DNA of 64,000 nt from Alphaproteobacteria bacterium (GTDB taxonomy: Bacteria; Pseudomonadota; Alphaproteobacteria; UBA9219; RGZA01), in contig JAKFVN010000005.1 in assembly GCA_021732145.1 (NCBI GenBank), positions 7,019-71,018 on the forward strand, given 5' to 3'. The stretch's first letter is position 1; the number at the start of each line of letters is the position of its first letter. This document shows positions 4,423 to 32,625 of this stretch, one piece after another. Made by a program: the position numbers and the translations under genes. A model generated the notes under the pieces. The model did no database searches. It saw only the letters and a program-made list of their open reading frames with translations, and was not told the DNA's origin.

Positions 4423-4434
4423 TTAAAGGCGCGA

Positions 4435-9914: not shown

Positions 9915-9991
9915 GCACCCGTAGCTCAACTGGATAGAGCATCTGACTACGGATCAGAAGGTTAGAGATTCGAATTCTCTCGGGTGCACCA
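9915..9991 (+). tRNA. tRNA-Arg (anticodon ACG)
   Basis: A manual cloverleaf fold works: acceptor stem GCACCCG/CGGGTGC, D-arm GCTC..GAGC, anticodon loop CTACGGA, T-loop TTCGAAT, and 3' CCA. Confidence 0.9.
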
Positions 9992-10047
9992 TTTCCATTG
10001 AACAACTTGCATCGTTACAAAAGCGGTTTGTGCTATTCAAATCGACT

Positions 10048-11565: not shown

Positions 11566-11616
11566 TTTTCGTAGGCTGACTACGGATCAGAAGGTTAGAG
11601 ATTCGAATTCTCTCGG
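11566..11616 (+). repeat. perfect 51-bp direct repeat of the tRNA-Arg 3' half (identical to 9943-9993). Candidate attR or att remnant.
   Basis: ctgactacggatcagaaggttagagattcgaattctctcgggtgcaccatt is present at both positions. Confidence 0.85.
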
Positions 11617-11662
11617 GTGCACCATTCTTTCAGGCACATCACGCATAATGCTTGGATTGTTG

Positions 11663-12010
11663 GGGAAATTAAAACCCGCAGCAGTGCCAGAATTTTGCTA
11701 ACACCAACCCTACTGCGGGCAGATCGTTCTGCTTGAACAGGAACGAAGCTTCAATATATACGCCGATTTGCATAAAAAGTCATCAGGCTAAATTGCCATG
11801 ATTTGCAAATAATTAGCTGGACGATTCATGGCAAGCGCGTAGATTCGGCGGTGCTAACACCACCAACCAATCCAGTGACAGAATTCATTTTTACTCAGAA
11901 TAGTTTGAACGGCGCATTGTCCATTCCGCTTTTGCGGGTTGATGGCTCACGTCTGCGCTAACCTATTCGGGTATGCATGCATCTTTCACTGGTAACAGTG
12001 CCGGGATTCC
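11663..12010 (+). promoter_or_regulatory. conserved leader module, copy 1, upstream of the GT28 gene. The 49-nt invariant stretch is at 11671-11719.
   Basis: Contains the stretch aaaacccgcagcagtgccagaattttgctaacaccaaccctactgcggg (an imperfect hairpin); a promoter-like ttgcat-N15-taaatt; cgctggacgattca; a second gctaacacc box followed by ccagtgacagaat; and the hairpin ccgcttttgcggg. Confidence 0.6.
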
Positions 12011-13306
12011 ATGACCCACCATTTTACCTTCGATGACCAAGCGCGGCCGGATGCCGCGCCTGCCAAGCCGCGCAAACTGCAATTATTTTTTTTTGATGCG
12101 GGCGGCGGGCACCGCAGCGCCGCAGAAGCGTTGATTGAAAGCGCAAAGGCGACTTATCCCAACTGGGATATCGAACTGATGAATTTGCAGGAACTGCTGA
12201 AGAAGACCGATCCTGTCTATCAGGTAACGGGATATCAGGCGGAAACGCTTTATAACGCGGCGATCAAGCGCGGCTGGACGTATGGCTCGCGGCCATTCCT
12301 GCGCGCGTTGCAACGCGGCATCCGCATGAATGCAGCGCCAATGAGAAAAGTACTGCGGGAGTATTTCGCGCAGTCAAAACCCGATTTAATCGTGTCGGTG
12401 GTTCCGAATTTCAACAAGGTGATGTTCGATGCACTGCGTGCAGTGCATGCGGATGTACCCTATGTGACCATTATGACGGATATTGCAGATAGCCCGCCGA
12501 ATTTCTGGATGGCAAACCAAGACCAGTACATGATTGTGGGCAGCCACAAGGCATTGTTGCAGGCGCATATGTCCGGCTTCTACAGGCCGGAGCGGATTTT
12601 TGAAACATCCGGCATGATTTTGCGGCCCGCGTTTTATAAAGATGTGTCGGATGCACCGTTGACGCATGAAACGATTGGCCTAGATCCCAATAAAAAGACA
12701 GCACTGATTATGTTTGGCGGCAATGGCGCGGTGGTTTCAAAAGAAATCGCGTTGAAGCTGCAAGCGCAGGGCATTCAAAGCATCGTGCTGTGCGGCCATA
12801 ACAAGGCATTGCTGGCGGATATGCAGGGCATTGAAGGGTGCCACGCGATTGGCTTTACCCAAAAGGTTGCCGATTACATGTGCCTCGCGAACTTCTTTGT
12901 TGGTAAGCCCGGCCCCGGCAGCATGACCGAAGCGTTGCATCTGGGGCTGCCGGTGATTATCGAAAACAATTCCCGCACGATGATACAGGAACGCTACAAC
13001 ATCATCTGGGCGGAAGAAAACAGGCTGGGCGTTTCCATCAAAAACTTTGCCCATATCGGCCGCGCCGCCACATTCTTGTTAAACAGCGGGCGGCTTGACC
13101 AACATATATCCAACGCCAACCGCCTGAATAACCGCGCGGTCTACGAAATTCCAAACATGCTGGAAAGCATTATGAATGCAAACCCCGTTTCGCGAGATAC
13201 ACAGCCGATTGTGCTGCCGGAACGCATGGCCGTGCGCGCAGGTGCGCGGCTTCGCGCCATGCTTCGAAGCAGGCCACATCATCAACCCCGAACCCCTTTT
13301 ATATAG
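12011..13306 (+). CDS. GT28-family glycosyltransferase, monogalactosyldiacylglycerol-synthase-like (candidate diacylglycerol glycosyltransferase)
   Basis: N-terminal FFFDAGGGHRSAAEAL matches the MGDG-synthase GGGHRASAEA motif. C-terminal GKPGPGSMTEALHLGLPVI matches the GT28 C-terminal motif. Confidence 0.75.
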   Translation: MTHHFTFDDQARPDAAPAKPRKLQLFFFDAGGGHRSAAEALIESAKATYPNWDIELMNLQELLKKTDPVYQVTGYQAETLYNAAIKRGWTYGSRPFLRALQRGIRMNAAPMRKVLREYFAQSKPDLIVSVVPNFNKVMFDALRAVHADVPYVTIMTDIADSPPNFWMANQDQYMIVGSHKALLQAHMSGFYRPERIFETSGMILRPAFYKDVSDAPLTHETIGLDPNKKTALIMFGGNGAVVSKEIALKLQAQGIQSIVLCGHNKALLADMQGIEGCHAIGFTQKVADYMCLANFFVGKPGPGSMTEALHLGLPVIIENNSRTMIQERYNIIWAEENRLGVSIKNFAHIGRAATFLLNSGRLDQHISNANRLNNRAVYEIPNMLESIMNANPVSRDTQPIVLPERMAVRAGARLRAMLRSRPHHQPRTPFI

Positions 13307-13323
13307 AAACGAATATTCAAGAC

Positions 13324-14580
13324 ATGACTGATACGACGCCTTTACTGCTGACCGATGGTGAACTGGATGCCTTGCACCGCAGATTGGAACCATTTGCCGG
13401 TGCCGATATGCCGGATACCGATTTACCCATTCACGAATTCCGCACCGCGTTTATGTCGGATTTGCATTTGGGGCGGCCCGATAGCAAGACCGATAAACAA
13501 TCCATTTTTTTAGACCGTGCGCGGCTTTCCAACAAAATCATCATCAATGGTGACTTCATTGATTACTGGTTGTTCCGCGCATCACGCCCGCAGCATCTGG
13601 GCCGCATTTTCAAAGATGATACGCATATGCGCACTGCTGTGAAATTTTTAAAGCTGGCGGCGCATGTGGGTTTTCGCCTGGTAAAGTGGGAAGTGTTCAA
13701 GCCATCGGGCGATGAAACCATGCGCTGGGAACAATCGCATAATATCCCGCTGCAAAAACTGCTGCGCATATTGCGCAAAGTGCCGGGCATTTTCGTGCCC
13801 GGAAACCATGATGAAATCTTCCGCGGCTTTACCAATGAATTGCATTTAATGGGCGGGGATGTCGCCGCATTGGCTACAGCGAAAAACGGTGCGCCAATTG
13901 ACTCCAAATTGCGCAATGCGTATTTCAAAAGCCCGTCGCTGGGCAATATGGATGTGCTGGAAGAATTCGTGTATGAAACCATGTCGGGCGAGCATATGCA
14001 TGTGTGCCACGGCGATAAATTCGATAATCCCATGAAAAAATCCAGCGCGCTGGGCATGATGGCAACCTGCGTTTATCACAACGGCATTGCGCCGCTGGTG
14101 CGCAATCTCGGCTTTCCTGAAACGGCATCATCCATGACTGATTATGTGAACAGCATGGATGGCAAAAAGGACATGACGAAGTATTACGATCGCTACGCTG
14201 AATTTCTGGGTAATCAAAATGCAGCTATTGTGGAGCATAACCGTGCGCATCCTGACCAAAAGCCGCGCCCATTACTGCGCGGCGGCATTCATGGCCATAT
14301 TCATAATCCCGGTATTTTTCACCATCGCGGCTATGTATTTATCGATAGCGGCGATTGGGTGGATGATGCGCATTGCACCGCTGCCGTCGAGCATCGCGAT
14401 GGGTCATGGCAGATTATGACGGTCAATCGGGAGAAGGGGATACATCCGCATCCTGTTACGCCGGAACGCGTGCAGCTATTCCAAAACCGCAGCGCATTAT
14501 CGCCCATTCCCAAACAACGTCCGCCGCGTCCCGATGTGGGGTGGATGACGCCCGGTGCAACGATGGAGGCACGGCTATGA
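13324..14580 (+). CDS. calcineurin-like metallophosphoesterase (PlcP-like phospholipase C candidate)
   Basis: Metallophosphoesterase motifs MSDLHLG, NGDFIDYW and VPGNHD. Confidence 0.75.
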   Translation: MTDTTPLLLTDGELDALHRRLEPFAGADMPDTDLPIHEFRTAFMSDLHLGRPDSKTDKQSIFLDRARLSNKIIINGDFIDYWLFRASRPQHLGRIFKDDTHMRTAVKFLKLAAHVGFRLVKWEVFKPSGDETMRWEQSHNIPLQKLLRILRKVPGIFVPGNHDEIFRGFTNELHLMGGDVAALATAKNGAPIDSKLRNAYFKSPSLGNMDVLEEFVYETMSGEHMHVCHGDKFDNPMKKSSALGMMATCVYHNGIAPLVRNLGFPETASSMTDYVNSMDGKKDMTKYYDRYAEFLGNQNAAIVEHNRAHPDQKPRPLLRGGIHGHIHNPGIFHHRGYVFIDSGDWVDDAHCTAAVEHRDGSWQIMTVNREKGIHPHPVTPERVQLFQNRSALSPIPKQRPPRPDVGWMTPGATMEARL

Positions 14581-15428: not shown

Positions 15429-15438
15429 ATTTTATGTG

Positions 15439-15810
15439 GGGGAATTTAAAACCCGCAGCAGTGCCAGAATTTTGCTAACACCAACCCTACTGCGGGCAGA
15501 CATTCTCGCTAAACAAGAATGAAGCAATTAGATATAAGATGATTTGCATAAAAAGTCGATGAGGTAAATTGATACGAAAGTAAAATTATTCGCTGGACGA
15601 TTCAGTCAAATAATATAAATTTCATGTTGCTAACACCAACAACAACCAGTGACGGAATACCCTACTCAATTTGAAAATTATGGCATGGCAGGTTTACCCG
15701 CTTTAGCGGGGTGATTTGCATCGGCATTTTTAACAACAGAACGCGCAGGAATTGCGTTTTCTGCATGTGTGGGCGCGTGTTTTTGAACTGGCAACATTGC
15801 CGGAATACGA
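15439..15810 (+). promoter_or_regulatory. conserved leader module, copy 2, upstream of the four-gene operon. The 49-nt stretch is at 15447-15495.
   Basis: Same ordered blocks as copy 1: the 49-nt stretch, ttgcat-N15-taaatt, cgctggacgattca, gctaacaccaacaacaaccagtgacggaat, the hairpin cccgctttagcgggg, and attgccggaatacga immediately before the ATG. Confidence 0.6.
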
Positions 15811-16776
15811 ATGTCCCCTGATGCGAATTTACGGGAACGTGCGGAGCTTTGCCCAGAACCCAGCAGAGCATTGCCATTAGATGGGCAAGCTGCGCGTCGT
15901 CCACATGAAGTGATTTATACGCCAGCGCTCGCTGAAGCTATTCCTGATCCTCAATTGCAACGTATACCTCCGGGGCATGGGCTGGTGATGGTTGGCGAGA
16001 AGAAGCGCGCAATTGTTTTTCGTGACCATAGCAGCCGTGAAAACGTTCGCCGCACGCGCCAGACCTTGGCGCTGTGCGAACGTTATCATTATGATGTGTT
16101 GGTTGTTGACCCAGCGCGCGGGCAGCATGACGTGTTGCTGGATAAACGCGCGCAGGAATTTCTGCGCATAGACCGCGATTTACCGCTGATTACGCTGCAA
16201 ACTCCGCAATTAAGCAGGGAGCAGATGCTGAGCTGGCTGTTCAGTGCCAATACCAATATGGTACTGGAAGTTGCCAAGGACGGCCTGCGTATTCTGGCGG
16301 ATAGCCATGTGGATGCGCCATACGCGCAGAAAAAACTAAACCGCAATACGGATGTGATTGGCGTGAGCACGCATGAACGTTTGACGGATGATACCAAACA
16401 TCATGCACTCACATCATCTTACTTGATTATCGCAATTGATGAAACGCATGCGCAGCAACTTATCCGCAGTTATGGCACGGCGCATGCGGTGGTACATGGC
16501 GGGCATTCGCATGATTGTCAGCAAATTTCCGAAATGGCAGCGCGCACAGATAAAAAAGTTGCCGTATTCCACCCCGACCCGCCGCAACGTTTACAGCATG
16601 CAGGAAAAATAAGCTTATCGCGCCTTCGCGCCGATAACGCCGTGGTGATTACCACCACGCCGGACATGATCCGCGCATTGAAAGATCTTTCCAGGCCAAC
16701 GGGAGGCGCGCCGTTTTTTGCGCAGCGTCCCGGAACGCGTAACGGAGGAATGGTTCACGCCCCGCAAGTTTTATAA
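15811..16776 (+). CDS. hypothetical protein (321 aa), first gene of the large operon
   Basis: ORF directly downstream of leader copy 2. No motif recognised. Confidence 0.55.
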   Translation: MSPDANLRERAELCPEPSRALPLDGQAARRPHEVIYTPALAEAIPDPQLQRIPPGHGLVMVGEKKRAIVFRDHSSRENVRRTRQTLALCERYHYDVLVVDPARGQHDVLLDKRAQEFLRIDRDLPLITLQTPQLSREQMLSWLFSANTNMVLEVAKDGLRILADSHVDAPYAQKKLNRNTDVIGVSTHERLTDDTKHHALTSSYLIIAIDETHAQQLIRSYGTAHAVVHGGHSHDCQQISEMAARTDKKVAVFHPDPPQRLQHAGKISLSRLRADNAVVITTTPDMIRALKDLSRPTGGAPFFAQRPGTRNGGMVHAPQVL

Positions 16777-16805
16777 GGGCGTTTTTTGTTAAGTGAGGTT
16801 TGCTG

Positions 16806-19800
16806 ATGAGTAAAACCGACCCGTTGCACATTGCAGACGCCGCGCGTGATGTTGCGCAGCGTAAAAAAGACAAATCATTCAATTTGTTTTCGCCGGATTA
16901 TTGTTTGCAATTGCTGGGGCTGGATGGCGCGGTGAAGCCATTACCCAAAAACGAGCCGGTTATTCTAAGCGATGGCGCTATTGACCCGCGCACGGGCGGG
17001 GGCGTTGTCTTAAAAACAATGCTTAAGCTCGATGAACATAAGCGCCTGCGCAGCCTTGAGGCATTATATATGTCATTGCAGCCCAATGGGCGGTATGTGG
17101 TCAGCAAATTGGCAGAATTATCGTTCCGTGCTTATCCCAGCTATCTCGTATTACAGCAAGCCAGCATTCTTGGGCGCGGCATTAATCCGGATCATACCGA
17201 CCGCGTGCTGCGTTTATTTGGCGCGTTGCAACGCATGCATACCGATATTCGCAATATGAATTTTCCGGATGTTGGAAAAATCATGGATGAGTTCCAGATT
17301 TCCGCATTGATTGGTGAGCGGTTGCATCTGCCCGGCATGTCCGCCAAAGGCGGATTTGATTTTCAGGCACCGATTGATTTACCGGTTAGCGCGGGCGCAC
17401 CGCTATTGCCACGCGATTTCCTTCCCGAGCTGCTGGGCCTTGGCCGCAATGATTTGGAGCCGATGTATGATTTTGGCGATGGCCGTGCCAAGACAGAAAT
17501 CGATAGGCAACATGGCGCTATCCATAATTTCAAGGCCAATCTGGTGGCCGATGCCACGCAAGGATCGTTGATTGCGGTAACCACGCCGCATAATGCACGG
17601 CATGGCAGTGCGATTACCGATTTGATCAAGGTAGGCTGGCGGTTGAAGGGCGATCATGCATTACTCGACCAGTTTGTATTGCTCGGCGAAGAAAGCCGCA
17701 GCCTGCCAGCCGCGCAATTGCAAAAGCGCATCGGCATTGTGAACAAGGCGATGAAGAATTTGCGCATGCGCCGTTACCCGCATGTGCTGGATTACATCGC
17801 GGAATATGACCAGCGCGATTTGGTGGATAAGCGCGCGCTGACGGGCATGGTTGATGAGCACAAGCAAATGATTGTCGTGCCCTTTGGCGGGCATAATGAC
17901 CGCGAATATCTGCCGGGCTTTGGCGCGACGATTGGCGGCAATTGCAAAGGTATTTTTACCTATTGGCGCGATGCGAATGGGCAGGTGCAGCGCAAGGGCG
18001 TTATCATCGATATGGGAATTATTTTTAGTAAGAACCATGCGGTGCAAGCGAGCGAGCAAGGCAATTGGGATTACGTGGTTCCCGATATTGTGAATTACCT
18101 CAACGATATCGACCATTTTTTTGCCACGCATTTACACGCTGACCATCTGGATGGATATATCGATTACATTGCGCGCGGCTTGATGCAGGGAAAGCATCTC
18201 CACGCCACTGCCTTCGTATGCCGCGTGCTGGAACAAAAGCTGAAGAAACGCAAAGTACCGCAGGAACGCTGGCCGCACATGCACACGCTGAAAGGCAAGG
18301 GCTTTGTGCATATTGCGGCGGGCGATGAGCGCGTGATGTCGGTTTATTATGCGGCCGACAGCATTCCGCACAGCACCGATAACACGCCGTATCTCGTACT
18401 GCCCGCGCCATATCGCTGCGATACCAAAGGTGTGCCAAAAGAGAAAGCTGTCACCGTCAATCCGCATTACTGGGTTTATGGCAATATGGGCGATACCAGT
18501 TTCGGGCGTTATAATTTGCCGGATTACGAAGGTGAGAAACCGCCCGATACCGGTTTCTCGCAAGATTTGCTGCGCATCTTTAAAAAAAATCTGGGCGGCG
18601 AATACAATGGCATTGCCAAAGCATCGCAAGCTGCGTTTGGCAAAGTGCATTTCATGGAGTGCGATCCCACATCCATTCACCGTGACGGCTTTGCGCCCGA
18701 TGTAGTGGATGTGGAGCAAAACCTTTGCTGTCTCAATGAATGGTTTTCGGATAAGGGGCTTATCCTGTTGGGTTTAAGTACAGCAAAGCGTCAGGATGAA
18801 ATGTGCCTGCGCTTTGCCAATCATTCGCAGCGCGATGTATCGGTATTTGGTGCGTATAAGGAAGACCGCTTCACTGATATGAGCGTGATGGGCGTGAACA
18901 CCAATGTGCTGGCGCGTAATCCGGCTGGAAAAAATGTGCAGGCGTATCTGGATTGGCATGGCGGCAGCAAAGGCGTGGTGCCCGTTAAATATTTCCGCCG
19001 CACCGCAAAGGAATGGCATGGCATTGTGGATGCGGATGTTAGCCGCGTGCTCATCCTTGGCACCGGCAGTCAGGGTACCGATATTGAAAAGGATGCGTTT
19101 GGCACGCAACTTGCGGAATTCCGCTCGCTTTTGCAAATGGATCCCAAATATCGCCCAACCGCGTTTGGCAAGGATTTGCGGAATTTCTTGGTTGTATATG
19201 CGCAGGGCGCCATTCCTGGGAATGAAGAAACGCAATATGCGCAAATTAAGAAAACTGCGATTGAGCTGGATATCACCGTTGCTGTTTCCGTGCATGAAGG
19301 CGCGCGGTTTTATAATGTAAAGGAATCGTATCTCTCGCGCATTGTTCAGGATTTGGAACGGCGCGGCGAACGCTTCACGCGCGAACCCAATAACGGCTTG
19401 TTCATTCAAAAATTTGCGCTCTACCCGCCGGGTCATGGCTGGAAGGAAGATTACCGCCAGGGCGTATTCCCGTGGATGAAGAAAAATGGCGTGGGCATGA
19501 TTTCCGCGCAGCATTTCGGCAAATTGGAATCCCCGCGCATCACGCATGAATTAGCGCGCGAGGCGGGCTTGCGTCACCCCAATGAAGCGATTTCAAACCA
19601 CACCGCCTTTTCAATGCGTGATGGCGGAAAACGCCTCGAAATTATCGGGCAGTTGCCGCCATCCTTTATTTTGGCGCGGCAAAACCGCCGCGCCGATAAA
19701 TATCATGGGGGCACGGCAGAATATAAGCGCGTGGTGGTCGCAGCGGGGCAGGTGGGTGCATCGCTTGGCGGGCTATTTGCCAACACCAACACGGTCTATA

Positions 19801-19994
19801 CGCAGGATTTCGGGAATGAAGATTACGACCGCGTGCTGTCGGAGGCGCAATGGCTGCCCGCCAAGCGCACGCGCCGCGATATTCATGCGGCACTCACCGA
19901 ATTGCCGCCGGAACTCGCCGCACGGCGCAATTTGCCAACGGCGGGCATGCGCACGCCCGCGCTTCCGCAGCATGATCATCTGGAGTTTGCCTGA
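16806..19994 (+). CDS. large hypothetical protein (about 1062 aa) with a metallo-beta-lactamase-fold signature, possibly beta-CASP-like
   Basis: HxHxDH motif (FATHLHADHLDG) followed by candidate MBL motifs IPHSTD and NMGD. A ribosome-binding site GTGAGGT precedes the ATG at 16806. Confidence 0.6.
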   Translation: MSKTDPLHIADAARDVAQRKKDKSFNLFSPDYCLQLLGLDGAVKPLPKNEPVILSDGAIDPRTGGGVVLKTMLKLDEHKRLRSLEALYMSLQPNGRYVVSKLAELSFRAYPSYLVLQQASILGRGINPDHTDRVLRLFGALQRMHTDIRNMNFPDVGKIMDEFQISALIGERLHLPGMSAKGGFDFQAPIDLPVSAGAPLLPRDFLPELLGLGRNDLEPMYDFGDGRAKTEIDRQHGAIHNFKANLVADATQGSLIAVTTPHNARHGSAITDLIKVGWRLKGDHALLDQFVLLGEESRSLPAAQLQKRIGIVNKAMKNLRMRRYPHVLDYIAEYDQRDLVDKRALTGMVDEHKQMIVVPFGGHNDREYLPGFGATIGGNCKGIFTYWRDANGQVQRKGVIIDMGIIFSKNHAVQASEQGNWDYVVPDIVNYLNDIDHFFATHLHADHLDGYIDYIARGLMQGKHLHATAFVCRVLEQKLKKRKVPQERWPHMHTLKGKGFVHIAAGDERVMSVYYAADSIPHSTDNTPYLVLPAPYRCDTKGVPKEKAVTVNPHYWVYGNMGDTSFGRYNLPDYEGEKPPDTGFSQDLLRIFKKNLGGEYNGIAKASQAAFGKVHFMECDPTSIHRDGFAPDVVDVEQNLCCLNEWFSDKGLILLGLSTAKRQDEMCLRFANHSQRDVSVFGAYKEDRFTDMSVMGVNTNVLARNPAGKNVQAYLDWHGGSKGVVPVKYFRRTAKEWHGIVDADVSRVLILGTGSQGTDIEKDAFGTQLAEFRSLLQMDPKYRPTAFGKDLRNFLVVYAQGAIPGNEETQYAQIKKTAIELDITVAVSVHEGARFYNVKESYLSRIVQDLERRGERFTREPNNGLFIQKFALYPPGHGWKEDYRQGVFPWMKKNGVGMISAQHFGKLESPRITHELAREAGLRHPNEAISNHTAFSMRDGGKRLEIIGQLPPSFILARQNRRADKYHGGTAEYKRVVVAAGQVGASLGGLFANTNTVYTQDFGNEDYDRVLSEAQWLPAKRTRRDIHAALTELPPELAARRNLPTAGMRTPALPQHDHLEFA

Positions 19995-22900
19995 TGGCCA
20001 TGCCAGACCCGCAGATGCAGCGCCATTTTTCCATGAACTATTACCGCGGGCCAGCGCAGGAAACGTTTTACAGCGCCCATCCTGATTACAGGCCATCATA
20101 TGATGATGTGCGGCATATGGTGGAAGCCGGAAAGCTCATTGAAATCTTCTATGATTTCGAAGCATCCGATAAACTGGCGGGCAGCGCCGTGCCAAAAGAA
20201 TATGCTGCGCTGGCCTTTGATTTGCGCGGGCGGCTGCTGGCGCATTTACGCATTCCCATCGCTATTCCCGAGCATCAGGCCTATGCCATTGGCGCGGCAT
20301 TGGTGGGCCGCATCGGCGTGCGTGATATGGCGCAAGGTTGGCCGGGCCATATGGCGGCGACCATGGTGCAAAACTTCCTTAAAGAATCCACACAGCTCAA
20401 CGGAAATGTATTAGGGCTAGAAGAAGTCACCTTTGCTGATGGCAAAAAAGGCTTCCGCTATGATTTGCCAAGCGATGGCAAAGCGCCGGTTGAATTGGAA
20501 ATCCACCAAAGCGGAAAAAAATTCCGTTTTGCTGGCGAGGAAGACTGGCAAAAAATCTACGGCGTATCGCAGCCATTCAACGGCGAAAATTATGATGACC
20601 CGATGGCCAGCCATTGGTATGCGCGCATGGGCATGGCGAGCCTGTTCCCCGGAAACCAGAAACGCCACGATACATTCCGCGAAGACGTGCGCGCCAAAGC
20701 CATTTGGGAATGGGCATTTGGCAAGCAAGGCAAGGATGGTTTGGTGTTGCCAGACCGCTGGCATAAAAAGACCAAACGCATGGTGCGCTCAACGCGCCTT
20801 GGCGATATTTTGCTGGCCAATAGCCGTACAGCCAACCGTGCGCGCGGTGTGGAAGGCGGGGCGGTGTTCTATGATGGCCGCGACCCAGACCCAGAAATCA
20901 TGCATGCATCCGATGAAGATGCGGCGGGTACAGCCGCGCTTAGTTTTTATCTGCGCCGCCTTGACCCTGAAGGCATGCGGTTTGTTTCCAGTTTGGCAGA
21001 GCGCAATAGTTATAAGGATTTCCTGCAAGGCACGGATGATTTCACCGACCGCCCGGCGCTTGGTTTCGTGCATTATGATGAAGGGATGCTGACGCGCGGC
21101 ATTGGCACGCTGCTGGCGACCGATGATGAATATGACGGCTTTGGCGACCGCAAGCGCGCGCTGCTGTTTAATTTATGCCATAATCCCGATGATTTATTGC
21201 ATTTGAACCATGAACAATTGCGCCCGCTGCTGGTGCAGCGGCACAACCCGATTTTTGTGCCATTGGTTTTAAACCGCACGCCGCAAGTGTGCGAATTTGA
21301 CCGCGCCTATAAGGCAGGCGCGGGCGGGCAGCACTCACCGGAAGAATATCACCGCCGCCGCCATGTTATTCTTAGCCACCGCGCATTCATTCAGCGCGTG
21401 ATGGAAACGCAGCTGGATTTGGTTAGCGTAACGCGTCCGCCCAATATCGTGACGACGCGGTCATTGGAAGACGATAGTTACAGTAGATATGGCGATTTGA
21501 AATACTTTGCGTATAAGGATGCTGCGACGGGGCAAGTTATCCCCATTCGCAAAACGGAATACCCTGATGTGTATGCACGCGCGACCAATAAATGGAATTA
21601 TGTGCGCCAGTTTGATTATTTGCTGCGCAGGGCAACCGAAGGTCATGCGATTGAATACAGCGATGATGACACAGCGCTGCTGGATTATCAGGAACGGCTG
21701 AAGGAAGTTGAACGCAAGTTGAAAGCGCATCAAGTCGGGTGGGATAAGCCGTTCACTTTGCCGGAAACCGGCATGGCGCTGGGCACGATTGAAGATGCGC
21801 GCATGCATTTATGGACGCTGCGCCACGCATGCCGCGCCGCATTGTTCAATTGCGTGCCGGAATTCTGGGTGATTAATTCGCGTGGGCAGCGTTTGCCGTG
21901 GGAAAAAGTGATTGCGATGGAAAGCGGCACGCGCAAAGGGCAATGGCCGCTGCGCGAAGACCGCGAAACGGGCGACCATTTGCGCATTACGTTTGAGCGC
22001 AATGATAAATTGCATGCCATTATCACCGCGCTGCGCGTTTTAGATGCCGATGCGTTTCTTGCAAAGCAGGGAAGCAGGCGCTGGCAAGAATGGTGGCGCA
22101 ATTATGTGGATACGAACTACGCCGAATGGAAACCGTTTTACGAAGCGTTTATCACATTGGGCGTGCAAGGCCCGCCGAACTTAGAGGCATCCGAACAGCG
22201 CCGCATGAGCGAGCGCAAGGCATTGCTGGAAATCGACCAGTTGATGAACAAGGCGGCGGAAACACCCGCCAGCGATTACATCCGCACGGTTTTAAAAACG
22301 CCGCAGGGGCAAAAACTGCTCGCGGAGCATCACGCGCATAAAAAACGCCGCATGAAAGCGTATCGGTGGACACCGGATAAGATGGAATTGATGGGATACG
22401 ATGCGCAGACGGCGTACCCAACGCTGAATACGCGTTACCGCATTGACCCGAAGAAGCTGATACGCCTGAAAGTGCCGGATGTAATGCTGGATCACCCGGA
22501 TTGGGATGATCACTGGCATCGCTTCCATATTATTGAACGCCCGCACCGCGATGTGCTGCGCGCCATTGAAAAGGCCGGGCCGGATACAGTCGTGTTGCTG
22601 GAAGGCGAAGCCACAGGCATGTTCCGCCTGGCAGCAAAAGCCGTGTGTCACCGCTTGCCGCCGCAGGGCGAGCGCACCCAGCAGGCAATTGCACGCGCAA
22701 AAAGTTCATATGGCACGGTTGGCAGGCAGTTATCCGGCCTTGCCGATGGGTTGCGCCTATTGAGTTTCGAGCAAATGGCGCCCGTGCATTTTGAACGCAA
22801 GGTGGATGAGTGTATTCAGCATGTCGCACTGCCGGCGCAGGATTGGGCGGGTTTAGCCGATGCCCGCGCAGGTGGTTTGCCAAAACCGCTGAAGAAGCTG

Positions 22901-23305
22901 ACCGGCATTATTGTGCGTGATACGGGTCAGGAATTCACCCAAGGGGATATTCGCCTGCGCCGCATGTCACGCGGGGAAGAAACGGGCGATGAGTATTCAG
23001 GGCGCCTCAAATCCGCGCAGCGCGTATCGCTCGACGATATTTGCAAGATGAGCGATGCGCAGGCGCAGCCATTCGGAAAATTATCCGCCGCCGATTTATA
23101 CAGCCAATGGAAAAAACTATTTGCCGATATGCGCGTCACTGACCCCGCCAAACAAAAGCTGTGGATTTTGAAGCTGGAGCGCCCGGTTAGCAAACTGACC
23201 TACACTTATTTCAACCGCGCGCAGCAGCCGGTTGCTGCGTTTATTTCCACACGGCCATTAAAAGGCCGCCAACAAAAACCGCAAGCTAGAAGGGCCGCAG
23301 CATGA
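19994..23305 (+). CDS. large hypothetical protein (1103 aa)
   Basis: Its start overlaps the upstream stop by 1 nt (TGATG). No NTPase motif. A possible DnaQ-like Exo-I-type DxE (IFYDFEASD) lies near the N-terminus. Confidence 0.55.
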   Translation: MAMPDPQMQRHFSMNYYRGPAQETFYSAHPDYRPSYDDVRHMVEAGKLIEIFYDFEASDKLAGSAVPKEYAALAFDLRGRLLAHLRIPIAIPEHQAYAIGAALVGRIGVRDMAQGWPGHMAATMVQNFLKESTQLNGNVLGLEEVTFADGKKGFRYDLPSDGKAPVELEIHQSGKKFRFAGEEDWQKIYGVSQPFNGENYDDPMASHWYARMGMASLFPGNQKRHDTFREDVRAKAIWEWAFGKQGKDGLVLPDRWHKKTKRMVRSTRLGDILLANSRTANRARGVEGGAVFYDGRDPDPEIMHASDEDAAGTAALSFYLRRLDPEGMRFVSSLAERNSYKDFLQGTDDFTDRPALGFVHYDEGMLTRGIGTLLATDDEYDGFGDRKRALLFNLCHNPDDLLHLNHEQLRPLLVQRHNPIFVPLVLNRTPQVCEFDRAYKAGAGGQHSPEEYHRRRHVILSHRAFIQRVMETQLDLVSVTRPPNIVTTRSLEDDSYSRYGDLKYFAYKDAATGQVIPIRKTEYPDVYARATNKWNYVRQFDYLLRRATEGHAIEYSDDDTALLDYQERLKEVERKLKAHQVGWDKPFTLPETGMALGTIEDARMHLWTLRHACRAALFNCVPEFWVINSRGQRLPWEKVIAMESGTRKGQWPLREDRETGDHLRITFERNDKLHAIITALRVLDADAFLAKQGSRRWQEWWRNYVDTNYAEWKPFYEAFITLGVQGPPNLEASEQRRMSERKALLEIDQLMNKAAETPASDYIRTVLKTPQGQKLLAEHHAHKKRRMKAYRWTPDKMELMGYDAQTAYPTLNTRYRIDPKKLIRLKVPDVMLDHPDWDDHWHRFHIIERPHRDVLRAIEKAGPDTVVLLEGEATGMFRLAAKAVCHRLPPQGERTQQAIARAKSSYGTVGRQLSGLADGLRLLSFEQMAPVHFERKVDECIQHVALPAQDWAGLADARAGGLPKPLKKLTGIIVRDTGQEFTQGDIRLRRMSRGEETGDEYSGRLKSAQRVSLDDICKMSDAQAQPFGKLSAADLYSQWKKLFADMRVTDPAKQKLWILKLERPVSKLTYTYFNRAQQPVAAFISTRPLKGRQQKPQARRAAA

Positions 23306-25572
23306 GCACAGAACCCGATTATGCAGCATTATACCGTGATGTTCATTTGTTTGGCGAGAAGCGCGGAATGTTTTCACCGTTTTATCAAGCGCATGCGCGA
23401 AAGAAAGGCCCGCGCTTTGACCAAATGCGTGCGGTGAACACGGTTGCGTTTGTAACATTGGCGCAGTTGCTGCAGGGCAAACGCACGATTTACCGCTTTG
23501 GTGCGATTTCAAAAGGCATGCGTGCCAATTATCAGGCGAAGATGAACGGCCCATTCATGGTGGAACGCGGCGACGGGTCATTAAAGCGCGGTTTTGATAC
23601 GCTTGATCTCGATGAAAAAATTGGCTCGCAGCAATATGTCGCCGAAGTCATTCTGCCGAACCAGCGCACGCAGATTGAGGGTCTCAGCTTCCTGCGTTCG
23701 CTGTTTCCGGAAAGCCCGGTGATTGTGCCCGCGTTTTTGCAGGCAGCAACCGTGCTGGCTGGCCAGCCCAATTTCGACCGTGGCGTAAAGCGCAAGGACA
23801 AGGATTACATGGTGCTGTGGGACCCCGTGATTGTGGAGTTGATTAACATGCTGCCCATGCAGGGGGATTGGCATTTCTCGCGCTCATCACACCTTGAACT
23901 GGGCCGCGCCGTGTTGATTGCCGCGGGATTGGAACCACGCAGACCCGAAGCGGATATGAGCTTCCCCGATGTTGAAAAAAATGAAGTCACACTATTTGAA
24001 ATGGCAAAGAAACGCCTTGAGTACCTGGTATGGGCGGCAGAAAACAAATTTGATTTGGATATAGAGCCAACGCATCTTGTTCGTGACTTGGCGATTGCGC
24101 AAATGGCGGAGCGCGGGCTGCTGCCCAATGCCAACCCCGTATTCATGGCGGGGATTGAAGCGAATATTGCAGGCCTTCGTGAGTTGCAAAAGGAAGTCGA
24201 ACCGTTTTTGCTGGCGCAAATTAAAGCGGATAAGTTTGAAATTGATACAACGGATTTGAAAGCGGTTAATCCCAATTTCGCGTTTTCCGTTGAAGCGGCA
24301 AAGAGCGGTGTATTGCCCGCCTCATCCTTCAGTCTTTCGGGCATTGCGGACAGGTTCGGTTTGCGCCGCTATTCCGATGCCGATTTGCAATCGGATATTT
24401 ATAACAGTGAAGAAATCCAGCGCATGAACAGGCAGGGGTTTGCGCTGGGCGCGGGGGATATTTTCCTTCCCCCCATGCGCCCCAGCGATACGGAGGCCAA
24501 ATCGCTGAAAGACCATGATGGGCGCAGCATTTTCTCCCGCCCCGTCATCACCGATTTGACCGAGCGTGAGATGATGCAGGCGCAGTTTGTGCTGGGCGCG
24601 GCAGAAACATTCATGCTGCCTGCCAAGCGCACGCTGTTTATTGTCGCCGATGATAAGTACGGGCCGGAAACCGCAAAACTGAACGGGCTGGCGTATGATG
24701 ATGAAGCGCCCAATGCCGCTGGCGCGGAGTTCCAAAAGAAAGTTCGCGAGCCGCATCGCGCCATCATCCGTGACTTGCAGCACCAGCTAAGCGCGCACGG
24801 CCATGTGATTAGCGCGCCGGACTTCCAACGTGTTTATGGCGTGTTCCAAGCCTTACCGGAATTTGCGGTATCGCCCGGCGAAGCCATGCCCGGAAGCGCG
24901 GCGCGGCTGGCGGCACGGCACCGTTACCTTGCGCGCAACGTGACCGATTTTGTGTTCAAGACAGGAATGTGGGAACAGTCGAATGACGGGGTGCAGGATA
25001 TGATTTTGGCAACCCGCATGCAGTTGGGACTGGAATCTGGCGCAGCACATGAACCGCACACCATTCGTGTCGTTGACGAAAACGGCAAGCCGCTATCGCT
25101 GGCTGACCGTGCGATGGCGATATGGCCGCAGTTGAAGAAGGCGATTGAAGCAGGGCGTGACGCGCATGATTTGGTGGAGCCAGCAACGGCGATTGCGCAG
25201 TGTTGGGCGTTCCACCGCTTGCTCACCGATCATCCGCTGCGCCAGATGGTGTTCACCGATTTACGCGAAAAAGAAAAGCTGTTCCTCCCCGCGAATATGA
25301 ATTGGCACCGCTTGCCCGTGCAACCCGGGGCCTATGGCCAGCAGGAATTTGAAAAATTATGGCATGACGAAATCAAGCCTGCGCTCGAAGGACGCATGGC
25401 AATGGCCGTGCGCACGCGTCACTTATCGCACATGGATGATTTTGCGGAATTAAAACGCAGGCAGGATGCCGCGCAAAAAATGGATATGGCTGGCACGCGG
25501 CCAGAAGCGGCGCGCGCGGCAAAAAGCGGCGGCGTGGCTGGCGTGCGCGAAGCGGCGCGCAATACCATGTGA
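23302..25572 (+). CDS. hypothetical protein (756 aa), last gene of the large operon
   Basis: Overlaps the upstream gene by 4 nt (ATGA). No recognised motif. Confidence 0.55.
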   Translation: MSTEPDYAALYRDVHLFGEKRGMFSPFYQAHARKKGPRFDQMRAVNTVAFVTLAQLLQGKRTIYRFGAISKGMRANYQAKMNGPFMVERGDGSLKRGFDTLDLDEKIGSQQYVAEVILPNQRTQIEGLSFLRSLFPESPVIVPAFLQAATVLAGQPNFDRGVKRKDKDYMVLWDPVIVELINMLPMQGDWHFSRSSHLELGRAVLIAAGLEPRRPEADMSFPDVEKNEVTLFEMAKKRLEYLVWAAENKFDLDIEPTHLVRDLAIAQMAERGLLPNANPVFMAGIEANIAGLRELQKEVEPFLLAQIKADKFEIDTTDLKAVNPNFAFSVEAAKSGVLPASSFSLSGIADRFGLRRYSDADLQSDIYNSEEIQRMNRQGFALGAGDIFLPPMRPSDTEAKSLKDHDGRSIFSRPVITDLTEREMMQAQFVLGAAETFMLPAKRTLFIVADDKYGPETAKLNGLAYDDEAPNAAGAEFQKKVREPHRAIIRDLQHQLSAHGHVISAPDFQRVYGVFQALPEFAVSPGEAMPGSAARLAARHRYLARNVTDFVFKTGMWEQSNDGVQDMILATRMQLGLESGAAHEPHTIRVVDENGKPLSLADRAMAIWPQLKKAIEAGRDAHDLVEPATAIAQCWAFHRLLTDHPLRQMVFTDLREKEKLFLPANMNWHRLPVQPGAYGQQEFEKLWHDEIKPALEGRMAMAVRTRHLSHMDDFAELKRRQDAAQKMDMAGTRPEAARAAKSGGVAGVREAARNTM

Positions 25573-25604
25573 TGGATTGGGCAATCGAGTGAGTTAGGAT
25601 TTTC

Positions 25605-25944
25605 GAGGACTAAAAACCCGCAGCAGTGCCAGAATTTTGCTAACACCAACCCTACTGCGGGTCATTGCGTTCTGAACGTTGAAGCAGAACGAACCTTCAT
25701 ATTTATGCTGATTTGCCTAAAGAGTCGATATGGAAAATTGATACGAAAGTAAAATAATTCGCTAGACGATTCATTTTATTCGGGTAAGTTTTGCGTCGCT
25801 AACACCACTAAACCAGTGACAGAATCACTATCTGAACATGCATGTGGCACAATGTGATTACCCGCTTTAGCGGGGTAGTCTTGCGCCAAGCTTGATGTGC
25901 ATGTGGATAACTTTCTGGCATTGGCACAATTGCCGGAATATCCA
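25605..25944 (+). promoter_or_regulatory. conserved leader module, copy 3. The 49-nt stretch is at 25613-25661.
   Basis: Same blocks as copies 1 and 2, including the hairpin cccgctttagcgggg at 25861-25875 and caattgccggaatatcca immediately before the ATG at 25945. Confidence 0.6.
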
Positions 25945-32433: not shown

Positions 32434-32447
32434 GGGGAGTTAATCAT

Positions 32448-32625
32448 TGGAGCGGGGATGAGGATTCGAACCCTGTGCCGCTTTGCGGCACGTATAAATT
32501 TGTCGAGGGTTCCTGACAACTACCGCTAGCTCTCAATGGAGCGGGGATGAGGATTCGAACCCTGTGCCGCTTTGCGGCACGTATAAATTTGTCGAGGGTT
32601 CCTGACAACTACCGCTAGCTCTCAA
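32448..32625. repeat. two tandem 89-bp direct repeats (32448-32536 and 32537-32625). Each begins with a tRNA-Gly-3'-end-like segment and contains a perfect 7-bp hairpin gtgccgc-ttt-gcggcac.
   Basis: The two units are identical by eye. Their first roughly 27 nt resemble the T-arm and acceptor 3' end of the adjacent tRNA-Gly (tggagcggg...attcgaaccct). A manual fold of either unit into a full cloverleaf failed. Confidence 0.7.

What the first reader, a model, noticed from the sequence alone, without database searches (positions are those of the whole stretch)
11663..25944. Three copies of a conserved leader module of about 350 bp, each placed directly upstream of a different operon
Copies at 11663-12010, 15439-15810 and 25605-25944 share the same ordered blocks. 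The first block is a 49-nt stretch identical in all three copies (aaaacccgcagcagtgccagaattttgctaacaccaaccctactgcggg); it folds as an imperfect hairpin with a 25-nt loop and has no T-run. The second block is a promoter-like ttgc(a/c)t-N15-(t/a)aaatt. Then comes cgct(g/a)gacgattca, followed by a second gctaacacc box (so each copy has this box twice) and ccagtgac(a/g)gaat. A short hairpin cccgcttt(a/t)gcgggg follows. Last is (c/t)attgccgg(g)aata immediately before the ATG. The downstream genes are unrelated to each other: the GT28 glycosyltransferase, the 321-aa first gene of the giant operon, and the Nudix-like gene. So the module is a shared control region (a promoter plus 5' UTR, or an sRNA or riboswitch-like element) that ties three operons into one regulon. 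The alignment also argues that the third gene starts at 25945 rather than at the longer ORF start of 25897. Conservation over about 350 bp is far more than a simple transcription-factor site would need.
Basis: seen in the sequence. Interest (0 to 1): 0.85.

Follow-up and report, generated by a model that had tools for sequence, protein, structure and literature searches.

The report
Triplicated small-RNA and leader control cassette
Three neighbouring operons of an uncultured alphaproteobacterium each carry the same ~350-bp control cassette, which most likely holds a backward-facing gene for an ~85-nt regulatory RNA plus the operon's own promoter and leader; the leader carries sequences that this RNA could pair with, which would link the three operons into one RNA-controlled regulon.

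Summary
The 49-nt stretch is exact in three copies (0 expected). The ~350-bp modules align block by block.

The modules are ancient, not a recent duplication. The same three module types occur upstream of the same gene families in eight other metagenomic genomes. There the proteins are only 48-82% identical, yet the 49-mer is nearly invariant.

- **The 49-mer:** it reads best on the minus strand. There it forms a ~19-bp G·U-rich hairpin followed by a U-run, so it looks like an intrinsic terminator. A covarying 5' stem-loop and a conserved sigma-70-like promoter (xxGACx-N17-TAnnnT) precede it. Together these define an ~85-nt sRNA gene that diverges from the operon.
- **The operon promoter:** all 19 leaders carry T(G/A)GAC(G/T)-N16-(-10 hexamer, mostly TAnnTT)-N7-GCTAACACC. 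This puts the mRNA start at the second box.
- **Pairing potential:** the sRNA hairpin arms are antisense to the mRNA 5' end (boxes Y2 and X2) and to the box covering the ribosome-binding site (X3).
- **Supporting clues:** one relative shows changes in the sRNA box matched in the leader box. Another carries an Hfq paralog in the cluster.

There is no Rfam match. All evidence is computational, so transcription and pairing are inferred. I judge it a new sRNA family with cognate leaders, of moderate interest.

The parts
11666..11750 (-). Predicted sRNA gene, copy 1 (~85 nt).
   Evidence: Covariance model hit of 106 bits. Minus-strand fold -33.7 kcal/mol with z -3.3, against plus-strand z -0.3. Coordinates verified.
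11755..11783 (-). Promoter-like site for sRNA copy 1: -35 ATGACT (11778-11783), 17-nt spacer, -10 TATATA (11755-11760).
   Evidence: The xxGACx-N17-TAnnnT pattern is kept in 13 of 13 copies tabulated. L022 and L025 fit with an 18-nt spacer.
11818..11845 (+). Promoter-like site for operon 1: -35 TGGACG (11818-11823), 16-nt spacer, -10 TAGATT (11840-11845). Box Y2 begins 7 nt further on.
   Evidence: The same geometry occurs in 19 of 19 leaders from 8 genomes.
11853..12010 (+). Predicted 5' UTR of the glycosyltransferase operon. It holds box Y2 GCTAACACC (11853-11861), box X2 CCAGTGACAGAAT (11872-11884), a small stem-loop (11925-11938), and anti-X CACTGG plus box X3 over the SD (11989-12007). 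The ATG is at 12011.
15443..15526 (-). Predicted sRNA gene, copy 2. The terminator hairpin is at 15452-15496 and the U-tract at 15443-15451.
   Evidence: Covariance model hit of 92 bits. Minus-strand fold -34.0 kcal/mol with z -4.75, against plus-strand -17.6 kcal/mol with z -1.0.
15531..15559 (-). Promoter-like site for sRNA copy 2: -35 TCGACT (15554-15559), 17-nt spacer, -10 TATATC (15531-15536).
15594..15621 (+). Promoter-like site for operon 2: TGGACG-N16-TAAATT.
15629..15810 (+). Predicted 5' UTR of the giant operon. It holds Y2 (15629-15637), X2 (15646-15658), a stem-loop CCCGCTTTAGCGGG (15697-15710), and CTGGCAACATTGCCGGAAT, which is anti-X plus X3 over the SD (15788-15806). The ATG is at 15811.
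25608..25695 (-). Predicted sRNA gene, copy 3. The terminator hairpin is at 25617-25661 and the U-tract at 25608-25616.
   Evidence: Covariance model hit of 86 bits. Minus-strand z -3.0, plus-strand z -1.5.
25700..25728 (-). Promoter-like site for sRNA copy 3: -35 TCGACT (25723-25728), 17-nt spacer, -10 TAAATA (25700-25705).
25763..25790 (+). Promoter-like site for operon 3: TAGACG-N16-TAAGTT.
25798..25944 (+). Predicted 5' UTR of the 365-aa / ATP-grasp / PhoH operon. It holds Y2 (25798-25806), X2 (25813-25825), a stem-loop (25861-25874), and anti-X plus X3 over the SD (25921-25939). The ATG is at 25945.

Best explanation
Each module is a two-part regulatory cassette built around a pair of divergent promoters.

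**Part 1, minus strand.** An ~85-nt small RNA gene with four elements:
- a sigma-70-like promoter (xxGACx-N17-TAnnnT);
- a short 5' stem-loop whose stem covaries;
- a U-tract, so the hairpin acts as an intrinsic terminator.

**Part 2, plus strand.** The operon promoter T(G/A)GAC(G/T)-N16-(-10 hexamer, mostly TAnnTT) would start the mRNA at the second GCTAACACC box (Y2). The resulting 150-190-nt leader has this order:
- Y2 and box X2 (CCAGUGACRGAAU) at its 5' end;
- a small conserved stem-loop;
- an internal anti-X segment (CACUGG);
- box X3 (CAGUGCCGGAAU), which covers the Shine-Dalgarno GGA.

**Proposed action.** The two arms of the sRNA hairpin (GGUGUUAGC and AUUCUGGCACUG) are antisense to Y2 and to X2 and X3. 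The three sRNA copies have an identical core, so any of them could act on all three leaders. Pairing to Y2 and X2 would free the internal anti-X to close on X3. Direct pairing to X3 would have the same effect. In either case the ribosome-binding site is hidden and the first gene of each operon is repressed together.

**Shown by sequence analysis:**
- the conservation of the cassette;
- the strand asymmetry of the fold;
- the covariation in the stems;
- the promoter and terminator motifs;
- the complementarity between sRNA and leader.

**Inferred:**
- that either strand is transcribed as proposed;
- the transcription start sites;
- that pairing happens;
- the sign of the regulation.
For: 1. **Strand asymmetry.** The same helices are 96.6% paired on the minus strand, with 71 G·U cells, against 74.1% on the plus strand. 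For the three window copies the minus-strand z-scores are -3.0 to -4.75 and the plus-strand scores -0.3 to -1.5.

2. **Terminator.** A GC-rich stem base followed by UUUU(A/U) on the minus strand is present in 12 of 14 copies.

3. **Covariation.** On 14 sequences, 96.5% of cells are paired against ~40% when partners are slid. Three pairs (8 cells) have changes on both sides, and 0 of 500 shuffles reach that. The 5' stem varies as CGUUC/GAACG, CAUUC/GAAUG, CAUUUC/GAAAUG and AUUCC/GGAAU.

4. **Promoters.** The minus-strand -35 and -10 elements keep a fixed 17-nt spacing in 13 of 13 copies. The plus-strand T(G/A)GAC(G/T)-N16-hexamer-N7-GCTAACACC geometry is kept in 19 of 19 leaders, with a variable spacer of invariant length.

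5. **Constraint.** Between orthologous modules the hairpin is 85-95% identical and Y2+X2 is 72-94% identical. The adjacent coding sequence is 55-66% identical.

6. **Co-variation between sRNA and target.**
   - In L022 the sRNA-gene box X1 became CAGTGCCTGAAG. The leader box X2 became the same sequence, which gives 12 perfect base pairs.
   - The Y2 variants GCTAACATC and GCTAACGCC keep pairing through G·U.

7. **Leader switch.**
   - An X2:anti-X helix of 5-8 bp is present in 18 of 18 leaders, with C-G, U-A and U·G exchanges.
   - Blocking the first 32 nt lowers the predicted accessibility of the ribosome-binding site in 10 of 15 leaders.

8. **Hfq.** An Hfq paralog is the fourth gene of the glycosyltransferase operon in L022 (Pfam 3.2e-24).

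9. **Modularity.** The sRNA unit and the leader unit each occur without the other: L007 and L021 'nu', L016/L018/L020 GT leaders, and L008.
Against: - There are no transcript data of any kind.
- Local duplex energies of the sRNA core with Y2 (-20 to -27 kcal/mol) and X3 (-17 to -24) are only near the 0.1-1% tail of shuffled 18-nt windows, so they are not compelling on energy alone. Whole-molecule duplex energies were uninformative.
- Complementarity between a minus-strand transcript and plus-strand boxes is the same fact as the direct repeat of the boxes. The parallel change in L022 therefore fits equally well a protein that reads the boxes.
- X2 always carries one A·G mismatch to the sRNA. 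X3 often carries a U·C mismatch.
- The L022 copy and the L006 GT copy lack a good U-tract.
- The L008 hairpin has G·U pairs on the plus strand in its outer stem.
- Some -10 hexamers are weak: TAAATA and TATATC for the sRNA promoter, and TACAAA in the L025 GT leader for the operon promoter.
- The covariance-model alignment was fitted to the minus-strand structure.
- The RBS accessibility effect is absent in 5 of 15 leaders, including window copies 2 and 3.
Confidence: 0.55

Rival explanations
1. Promoter TTGC(A/C)T-N15-(T/A)AAATT drives a long 5' UTR of about 250 nt. The 49-mer hairpin just upstream is a + strand element, such as the end of the upstream operon's transcript, an insulator or an upstream activating site.
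For: The hexamers are present in all three window copies and in the close relatives. The 49-mer lies 20-40 nt after the stop codons of the upstream + strand genes in copies 2 and 3. A helix TCGCTGG/CCAGTGA predicted on + strand RNA has one compensatory change.
Against: - On the + strand the 49-mer forms only 7-9 bp and has no U-run. Its z-scores are not significant.
- 71 G·U cells become C·A mismatches on the + strand.
- The proposed promoter is not kept in L016, L018 or L020. It is absent from leaders that lack the sRNA unit, while the alternative promoter is found in 19 of 19.
- The hairpin is also present where no + strand gene lies upstream (copy 1, L007 GT).
- TCGCTGG coincides with the -35 element of the better-conserved promoter.
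Confidence: 0.12
2. This is a DNA-level model. The repeated boxes X and Y are operators for one transcription factor. They flank the divergent promoter pair about 155 bp apart, and the factor represses or activates by looping the DNA.
For: - The boxes lie on either side of the promoter region in a mirror order: X1-Y1 ... Y2-X2.
- The box-to-box distance is 155-169 bp.
- The parallel change of X1 and X2 in L022 would also fit co-evolution with a protein.
- A conserved GCTGATTTGCAT in the spacer of the minus-strand promoter suggests that at least one protein-binding site exists.
Against: - It does not explain the covarying stem of hairpin 2.
- It does not explain why all non-Watson-Crick positions of the 49-mer are G·U on one strand.
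- It does not explain the conserved U-tract.
- Half-site order and spacing differ between site I (X-7 nt-Y) and site II (Y-7 to 13 nt-X).
- The spacing between the sites is not kept in helical phase (155 against 169 bp).
- A third X box sits on the ribosome-binding site, which is an odd place for an operator.
Confidence: 0.13
3. This is an RNA-binding-protein model. The X boxes (CNGGAAU, one of them on the SD) are sites for a CsrA-like or other RNA-binding protein on the + strand leader. The minus-strand RNA either does not exist or acts only indirectly.
For: There are two to four GGA-containing boxes per leader, and the last one is on the SD. An Hfq paralog lies in the cluster of L022.
Against: - Several X2 boxes read AGAAU, not GGAAU.
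- The predicted sRNA carries no GGA motif, so it is not a CsrB-type sponge.
- The model does not account for the Y boxes or for the sRNA-gene features.
Confidence: 0.1
4. The module is a mobile or selfish repeat (REP or MITE-like), or the product of a recent segmental duplication, and has no regulatory role.
For: There are three near-identical 49-mers within 14 kb. Copy 1 lies 40 nt from a duplicated tRNA-Arg 3' end.
Against: - Copies group by downstream operon across genomes, so the triplication is old.
- Similarity stops at the ATG, and the coding regions are unrelated.
- There are no further copies in the 64 kb.
- The module is always found with the same gene families in 9 genomes.
- Scans found 0 hits in viral contigs, 1 related genome in GTDB representatives, and none in JGI metagenomes.
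Confidence: 0.02

Closest known systems
IstR-1/tisB, OhsC/shoB, OrzO/zorO and AgrB/dinQ: divergently transcribed sRNAs with short complementarity to the 5' UTR of the neighbouring gene (from my own knowledge of type I toxin-antitoxin loci in E. coli).
   Same: - The sRNA gene lies next to its target and is transcribed away from it.
- The two share only a short patch of complementarity (about 12-20 nt) in the target's long 5' UTR, not a full antisense overlap.
- Some of these loci are also present in several copies.
   Different: - The neighbours here are large multi-gene operons, not small toxic peptides.
- No conserved small ORF was found in the leaders.
- There are several target boxes per leader, at the 5' end and at the ribosome-binding site.
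- The cassette is triplicated before three different operons.
Sibling sRNAs with a shared seed, for example AbcR1/AbcR2 of Alphaproteobacteria (PMC5461406), and Qrr1-4 or OmrA/B (own knowledge).
   Same: There are several copies of one sRNA with an identical pairing region in one genome. The architecture has a terminator hairpin plus a U-tail. Hfq may be involved.
   Different: - There is no sequence or Rfam relation.
- Here each sibling is physically coupled to one target promoter.
- The pairing sequences lie in the arms of the terminator hairpin rather than in a single-stranded 5' seed.
The rpoS leader with DsrA, RprA and ArcZ: an sRNA-driven switch between alternative leader pairings (own knowledge).
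   Same: The long leader has an upstream segment and the ribosome-binding-site region competing for pairing partners. Binding of an sRNA to the upstream segment would shift that balance.
   Different: In rpoS the sRNA frees the ribosome-binding site, so it activates. Here the predicted effect is the opposite: the freed anti-X closes on the SD. This rests only on folding predictions.
Intrinsic (Rho-independent) terminators.
   Same: The 49-mer read on the minus strand has a GC-rich stem base and a following U-tract.
   Different: The stem is unusually long (about 19 bp), rich in G·U pairs, and almost invariant in sequence across species. That points to a second function beyond termination.

Membership tests
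Any Rfam family (riboswitch, leader, sRNA) | Match to a curated covariance model at or near its gathering score. | tested here: not met
   The whole window and L018 at gathering threshold gave only two tRNAs or nothing. Modules 1 and 2 at E<=10 on both strands gave only chance-level hits far below gathering.
Intrinsic terminator (on the minus strand) | A stable GC-rich hairpin directly followed by a U-tract. | tested here: met
   The CCCGCAGUAG.../...CUGCUGCGGG stem is followed by UUUUAAUUU, UUUUAAAUU or UUUUUAGUC in the window. This holds in 12 of 14 copies overall. L022 and the L006 GT copy are weak.
Base-pairing trans-acting sRNA | Its own promoter and a defined short transcript. | tested here: inconclusive
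   A conserved -35/-10 pattern sits at fixed spacing, about 85 nt upstream of the end of the U-tract. No transcript data are available.
Base-pairing trans-acting sRNA | A conserved secondary structure supported by covariation on the transcribed strand. | tested here: met
   96.5% of cells are paired, and 3 pairs (8 cells) are compensatory with 0 of 500 shuffles reaching that. Pairing on the minus strand is 96.6% against 74.1% on the plus strand. Statistical power is limited, with 14 sequences from 9 genomes.
Base-pairing trans-acting sRNA | Complementarity to target mRNAs at or near the ribosome-binding site or 5' UTR, kept through evolution. | tested here: inconclusive
   - Contiguous pairing to Y2 is 10-14 bp in all leaders.
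- Pairing to X3 on the SD is about 12 bp.
- Matching changes occur in L022, and Y2 variants are wobble-compatible.
- Duplex energies are not clearly beyond shuffles.
- The pattern equals a direct repeat, so a protein reader is not excluded.
Base-pairing trans-acting sRNA | Dependence on Hfq or ProQ. | not testable with these tools
   The only clue is circumstantial: an Hfq paralog inside the cluster of L022.
Riboswitch or cis-acting metabolite sensor in the 5' UTR | A conserved, covarying aptamer core followed by an expression platform. | tested here: not met
   The middle of the leader is 45-70% identical and variable in length, with only one 4-5-bp stem-loop kept. Rfam gives no match.
REP / MITE / other dispersed repeat | Many copies in unrelated genomic contexts. 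| tested here: not met
   There are three copies in 64 kb, all before the cluster's operons. The linkage is the same in 9 genomes. The rest of the 774-kb source contig could not be read.
Recent segmental duplication | Paralogous copies are closer to each other than to orthologs, and similarity extends into the flanks. | tested here: not met
   Copies cluster by operon type across genomes. Similarity ends at the ATG.
Type I toxin-antitoxin locus (tisB/istR-like) | A small hydrophobic toxin ORF downstream of the targeted leader. | tested here: not met
   Short ORFs in the leaders differ in frame and are often absent between orthologs, as seen by reading the sequences. The downstream genes encode proteins of 196-431 aa.

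The most novel reading that the evidence does not exclude
The cassette is a self-contained RNA relay for a gene cluster of unknown function.
- Each sRNA's hairpin arms compete with an internal anti-box for two look-alike boxes in the leader, one at the 5' end and one on the ribosome-binding site. This would make a three-way RNA switch.
- The sRNA genes lie convergent to the preceding operon and have no + strand terminator. Read-through from operon N would therefore produce a perfect antisense sponge for the sRNA that guards operon N+1.
- The three operons would then be switched on in order.
- Some lineages add a cluster-encoded Hfq.
Probability: 0.15. Interest if true: 0.7.

Novelty: new member of a known kind. 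Interest (0 to 1): 0.55.

Why it matters
If confirmed, this adds a new sRNA family with cognate leaders in uncultured Rhodospirillales-like Alphaproteobacteria. Its core of about 45 nt is held almost invariant across lineages whose proteins have diverged to 50-60% identity.

It would show a regulator gene and its target site being copied together as one cassette. It also gives a concrete, testable handle on when a very rare gene cluster is expressed. That cluster includes three giant proteins of 756-1103 aa without recognisable domains, and a 321-aa protein with only four relatives among 5.8 billion clusters. The shared control strongly suggests that the following act in one pathway:
- the glycolipid-synthase, phosphoesterase and HAD operon;
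- the giant operon;
- the ATP-grasp and PhoH operon.

More generally, it is a reminder to read a conserved 'leader' on both strands.

Tried and rejected
**Known families and literature**
- Rfam, at gathering and at permissive thresholds, gave nothing.
- A literature search for the box sequences returned only chance primer or siRNA strings. A topical search returned nothing related.

**Collection scans**
- Genome contigs with a 23-mer of the 49-mer: 0 hits.
- Genome contigs with a gapped hairpin pattern: 1 genome, a Rhodospirillales MAG.
- Metagenome contigs with the hairpin pattern: 0 hits.
- Metagenome contigs with a leader pattern: 5 hits, all chance matches without the other blocks.
- Viral contigs: 0 hits.

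**Alternative motif readings, examined by eye on the sequences and dropped**
- Sigma-54 promoters: TGGCAC-like motifs have the wrong GG-to-GC spacing, and copy 3 has TAG in place of TGG.
- EcfG or ECF-type promoters: GAAC-N16 is present but the -10 element is not conserved.
- Pho boxes: only single CTGTCAC-like half-sites are present.
- CtrA boxes.
- tRNA-anticodon mimicry of the CUAACAC loop: the stems are weak and the box turned out to be a helix arm.
- Integron attC sites.
- A conserved leader peptide.

**Computations that did not help**
- Whole-molecule RNAduplex energies were uninformative, because large interior loops are allowed.
- Windowed duplex energies were not clearly beyond shuffles.
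- The AlphaFold2 model of the 365-aa protein was too poor for a fold search (pLDDT 39.6).
- PDB sequence searches with five cluster proteins found nothing.

Full report
**1. The observation**

The 49-nt sequence is exact at 11671-11719, 15448-15496 and 25613-25661. No shuffle of the window produced a match. GCTAACACC occurs six times in 64 kb, twice in each module, against 0.2 expected.

The downstream genes are unrelated to each other:
- **Operon 1:** an MGDG-synthase-family glycosyltransferase, followed by a metallophosphoesterase and a HAD hydrolase.
- **Operon 2:** a 321-aa protein followed by proteins of 1064, 1103 and 756 aa, with essentially no family matches.
- **Operon 3:** a 365-aa protein followed by an ATP-grasp ligase, a PhoH-like ATPase and a dienelactone hydrolase.

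The 'Nudix-like' label has no support.

**2. Origin and relatives**

The window comes from a 774-kb metagenomic contig. It is chromosomal, since uvrA and dnaE lie nearby.

The 321-aa protein has only four clusters among 5.8 billion. Through it, the 365-aa protein and the glycosyltransferase, I recovered loci from eight other genomes. They include two MAGs in NCBI, deposited as 'Alphaproteobacteria bacterium' and 'uncultured Rhodospirillales bacterium'.

All of these genomes have the same cluster, with the operons in varying order. All carry the module in front of the same gene families.

In an alignment of eight modules, the copies group by downstream operon rather than by genome. The triplication is therefore older than the divergence of these species. 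Between orthologous modules, conservation by segment is as follows.

| Segment | Identity |
|---|---|
| 49-mer region | 85-95% |
| First 32 nt after the second box | 72-94% |
| Adjacent coding sequence | 55-66% |

This rules out a recent duplication. Together with the absence of further copies in the window, it also argues against a generic dispersed repeat.

**3. The 49-mer belongs to the minus strand**

On the + strand it forms only 7-9 base pairs with a large loop and no U-run. On the minus strand it forms a stem of about 19 bp in which every irregular position is a G·U pair. The conserved TTAAAA in front of it becomes a U-tract after the stem.

- Counted on 12 copies, the same helices are 96.6% paired on the minus strand, with 71 G·U cells, and 74.1% paired on the plus strand.
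- For the three window copies the z-scores against dinucleotide shuffles are -3.0 to -4.75 on the minus strand and -0.3 to -1.5 on the plus strand.
- Between this hairpin and the next conserved block lies a second stem-loop. Its loop varies in length and its stem changes in a compensatory way: CGUUC/GAACG, CAUUC/GAAUG, CAUUUC/GAAAUG and AUUCC/GGAAU. Again, wobble pairs are valid only on the minus strand.
- On 14 copies, 96.5% of cells pair, against about 40% when partners are slid. Three pairs (8 cells) show changes on both sides, and 0 of 500 shuffles reach this.
- Just upstream on the minus strand, all 13 copies tabulated have xxGACx, a 17-nt spacer and TAnnnT. The T-A of the -10 element are the only invariant bases in an otherwise variable stretch. 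L022 and L025 fit with an 18-nt spacer.

Promoter, 5' stem-loop, terminator hairpin and U-tract together define an sRNA gene of about 85 nt, transcribed away from the operon. Rfam has no such family.

**4. The operon promoter and leader**

It is not conserved in the more distant genomes, and it is absent from leaders that lack the sRNA unit.

By contrast, all 19 leaders share one fixed geometry:
- T(G/A)GAC(G/T), inside the block cgctggacgattca;
- a spacer of exactly 16 variable nucleotides;
- a -10-like hexamer, TAnnTT in 16 leaders (TAGATT, TAAATT, TACATT, TATATT or TAAGTT) and TATCTT, TACAAA and TATTTT in the L022 and L025 leaders;
- exactly 7 nucleotides;
- then GCTAACACC.

Two conserved hexamers at fixed distance across a variable spacer are the signature of a promoter. 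This would start the mRNA at or one base before the second box (Y2). The leader of 131-192 nt then has the following order:
- Y2;
- box X2 (CCAGUGACRGAAU);
- a variable stretch containing one conserved small stem-loop, which reads CCCGC-UUUA-GCGGG, CCCAC-AUGU-GUGGG or GCCC-ACUAAA-GGGC;
- a segment CACUGG or CUGGC, which I call anti-X;
- box X3 (CA(G/U)UGCCGGAAU), whose GGA lies 6-8 nt before the AUG.

**5. How the parts relate**

The 49-mer on the + strand contains X1 (CAGTGCCAGAAT) and Y1 (GCTAACACC). The sRNA therefore carries their complements in the two arms of its terminator hairpin.

- **Pairing to Y2.** The arm GGUGUUAGC, extended to GUUGGUGUUAGCAA, pairs with Y2 over 10-14 contiguous base pairs in every leader.
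- **Pairing to X2 and X3.** The arm AUUCUGGCACUG pairs with X2 with one A·G mismatch. It also pairs with X3, which lies on the ribosome-binding site.
- **Y2 variants.** The two Y2 variants seen, GCTAACATC and GCTAACGCC, both keep pairing by wobble.
- **L022.** X1 has changed to CAGTGCCTGAAG. X2 has changed to the same sequence, which restores 12 perfect pairs. A further change within the hairpin keeps the sRNA stem.
- **Helix inside the leader.** X2 and anti-X form a long-range helix of 5-8 bp in 18 of 18 leaders, with C-G, U-A and U·G exchanges.
- **Competition for anti-X.** Anti-X can instead pair locally with X3.
- **Predicted effect on the RBS.** In partition-function folds, making the first 32 nt unavailable lowers the probability that the SD-AUG region is unpaired in 10 of 15 leaders. 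For example, it falls from 0.57 to 0.27 for copy 1.

The simplest reading is that the sRNA represses the first genes of all three operons. It would do so by capturing Y2 and X2, by covering X3, or both.

Two circumstantial points fit an RNA-based circuit. An Hfq paralog is the fourth gene of the glycosyltransferase operon in L022. The sRNA unit and the leader unit can each occur without the other.

**6. Limits**

- Nothing here shows transcription.
- Windowed duplex energies for the Y2 and X3 sites fall only in the 0.1-1% tail of shuffled windows. The case for pairing therefore rests on position, conservation and co-variation, not on energy.
- A minus-strand transcript that is complementary to + strand boxes is the same fact as the boxes being direct repeats. 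A protein that reads X and Y on DNA or on + strand RNA would also explain their parallel evolution. Such a protein would not explain the strand-specific G·U pattern, the covarying 5' stem or the U-tract.
- Two copies have poor U-tracts.
- The diverged L008 copy has wobble pairs on the + strand in its outer stem.
- The structural alignment was produced with a model built on the minus-strand structure.

**7. Comparison with known systems and verdict**

The layout resembles the divergent sRNA-target pairs of some type I toxin-antitoxin loci, such as IstR-1/tisB, OhsC/shoB and OrzO/zorO. It also resembles sibling sRNAs such as AbcR1/2 of Alphaproteobacteria (PMC5461406). There is no toxin ORF and no sequence relation to any Rfam family.

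What sets this case apart:
- The regulator is coupled to three different operon promoters as one copied cassette.
- The pairing sequences lie in the arms of the terminator hairpin.

I file it as a new sRNA family with cognate leaders, which is a new member of a known kind. Interest is moderate at 0.55: the element is real, strongly constrained and undescribed, and it regulates a very rare gene cluster, but the class of mechanism is familiar and all evidence is computational.

Noticed in passing
window 9943-9993 and 11576-11626: The 3' end of tRNA-Arg(acg) (gene at 9915-9991) is repeated as an exact 51-nt direct repeat. The repeats bracket 1.6 kb that holds only a weak HAD-like ORF (10564-11448). 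In the syntenic locus L006 this position holds a yjdM-like gene and no such insert. It looks like the att-site scar of an integrated element without an integrase. sRNA copy 1 ends 40 nt to the right of the second repeat.
   Followed up: partly
window 32444-32621, next to tRNA-Gly(gcc) at 32626-32700 (-): There are two tandem 89-nt units, 99% identical to each other. Their first 31 nt resemble the 3' part of the adjacent tRNA-Gly, and each contains a GUGCCGC-AAA-GCGGCAC hairpin. ARAGORN and Rfam (E<=1) do not call them.
   Followed up: partly
window 15811-25572: The operon of four proteins (321, 1064, 1103 and 756 aa) has almost no detectable relatives or domains.
- The 321-aa protein has 4 clusters among 5.8 billion.
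- The only domain signal is a weak metallo-beta-lactamase/RNase J-like stretch in the 1064-aa protein.
- PDB sequence searches are empty.
- In more distant genomes the giant genes are replaced. A 196-aa homolog of the N-terminal part of the 321-aa protein takes the first position. It is followed by 489-aa, 5'-nucleotidase and AdoHcy-hydrolase-like genes.
   Followed up: partly
L022 3903-4163: An 86-aa Hfq paralog (Pfam Hfq, E 3.2e-24) is encoded as the fourth gene of the glycosyltransferase, phosphoesterase and HAD operon in one relative. The intergenic region after it (4164-4520) has no module.
   Followed up: partly
window 11762-11773, 15538-15549, 25707-25718: GC(C/T)GATTTGC(A/C)T lies in the spacer of the predicted minus-strand promoter, yet it is conserved in nearly all copies. 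That is unusual for a spacer and suggests a binding site for an unknown transcription factor that controls the sRNA.
   Followed up: no
L007 4169-4507, L021 1120-1460; L016 2300-2668, L018 1360-1634, L020 2772-3111, L025 1566-1907; L008 95-186: The two halves of the cassette are separable.
- Two orthologous leaders (L007 4169-4507 and L021 1120-1460) keep the minus-strand promoter and the 5' stem-loop but lack the terminator hairpin.
- Four glycosyltransferase leaders lack the terminator hairpin. Three of them (L016, L018, L020) lack the whole sRNA unit.
- L008 has a diverged sRNA unit (40 bits) directly before the gene, with no leader.
   Followed up: partly
L016, L018 and L020 leaders before the 196-aa gene, for example L018 5322-5335: The distant leaders carry an extra box GCUGGAAUUUUGC about 40 nt before the AUG. 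It is complementary over 13 bp, two of them wobble pairs, to the apical part of the sRNA hairpin (GCAAAAUUCUGGC).
   Followed up: partly
window 5184-7034 and 7031-8863 (-): Two adjacent paralogous TPR-repeat proteins of about 610 aa share a 300-nt stretch at 69% identity. They lie next to a GT2 glycosyltransferase. This trio is syntenic with L006 upstream of the cluster.
   Followed up: no
window 25945-27042: The 365-aa first gene of operon 3 is conserved in seven protein clusters, with many invariant residues. It has no Pfam, NCBIfam or PDB sequence match, and the AlphaFold2 model from the 7-sequence alignment was poor (pLDDT 39.6). The 'Nudix-like' label could not be substantiated.
   Followed up: partly
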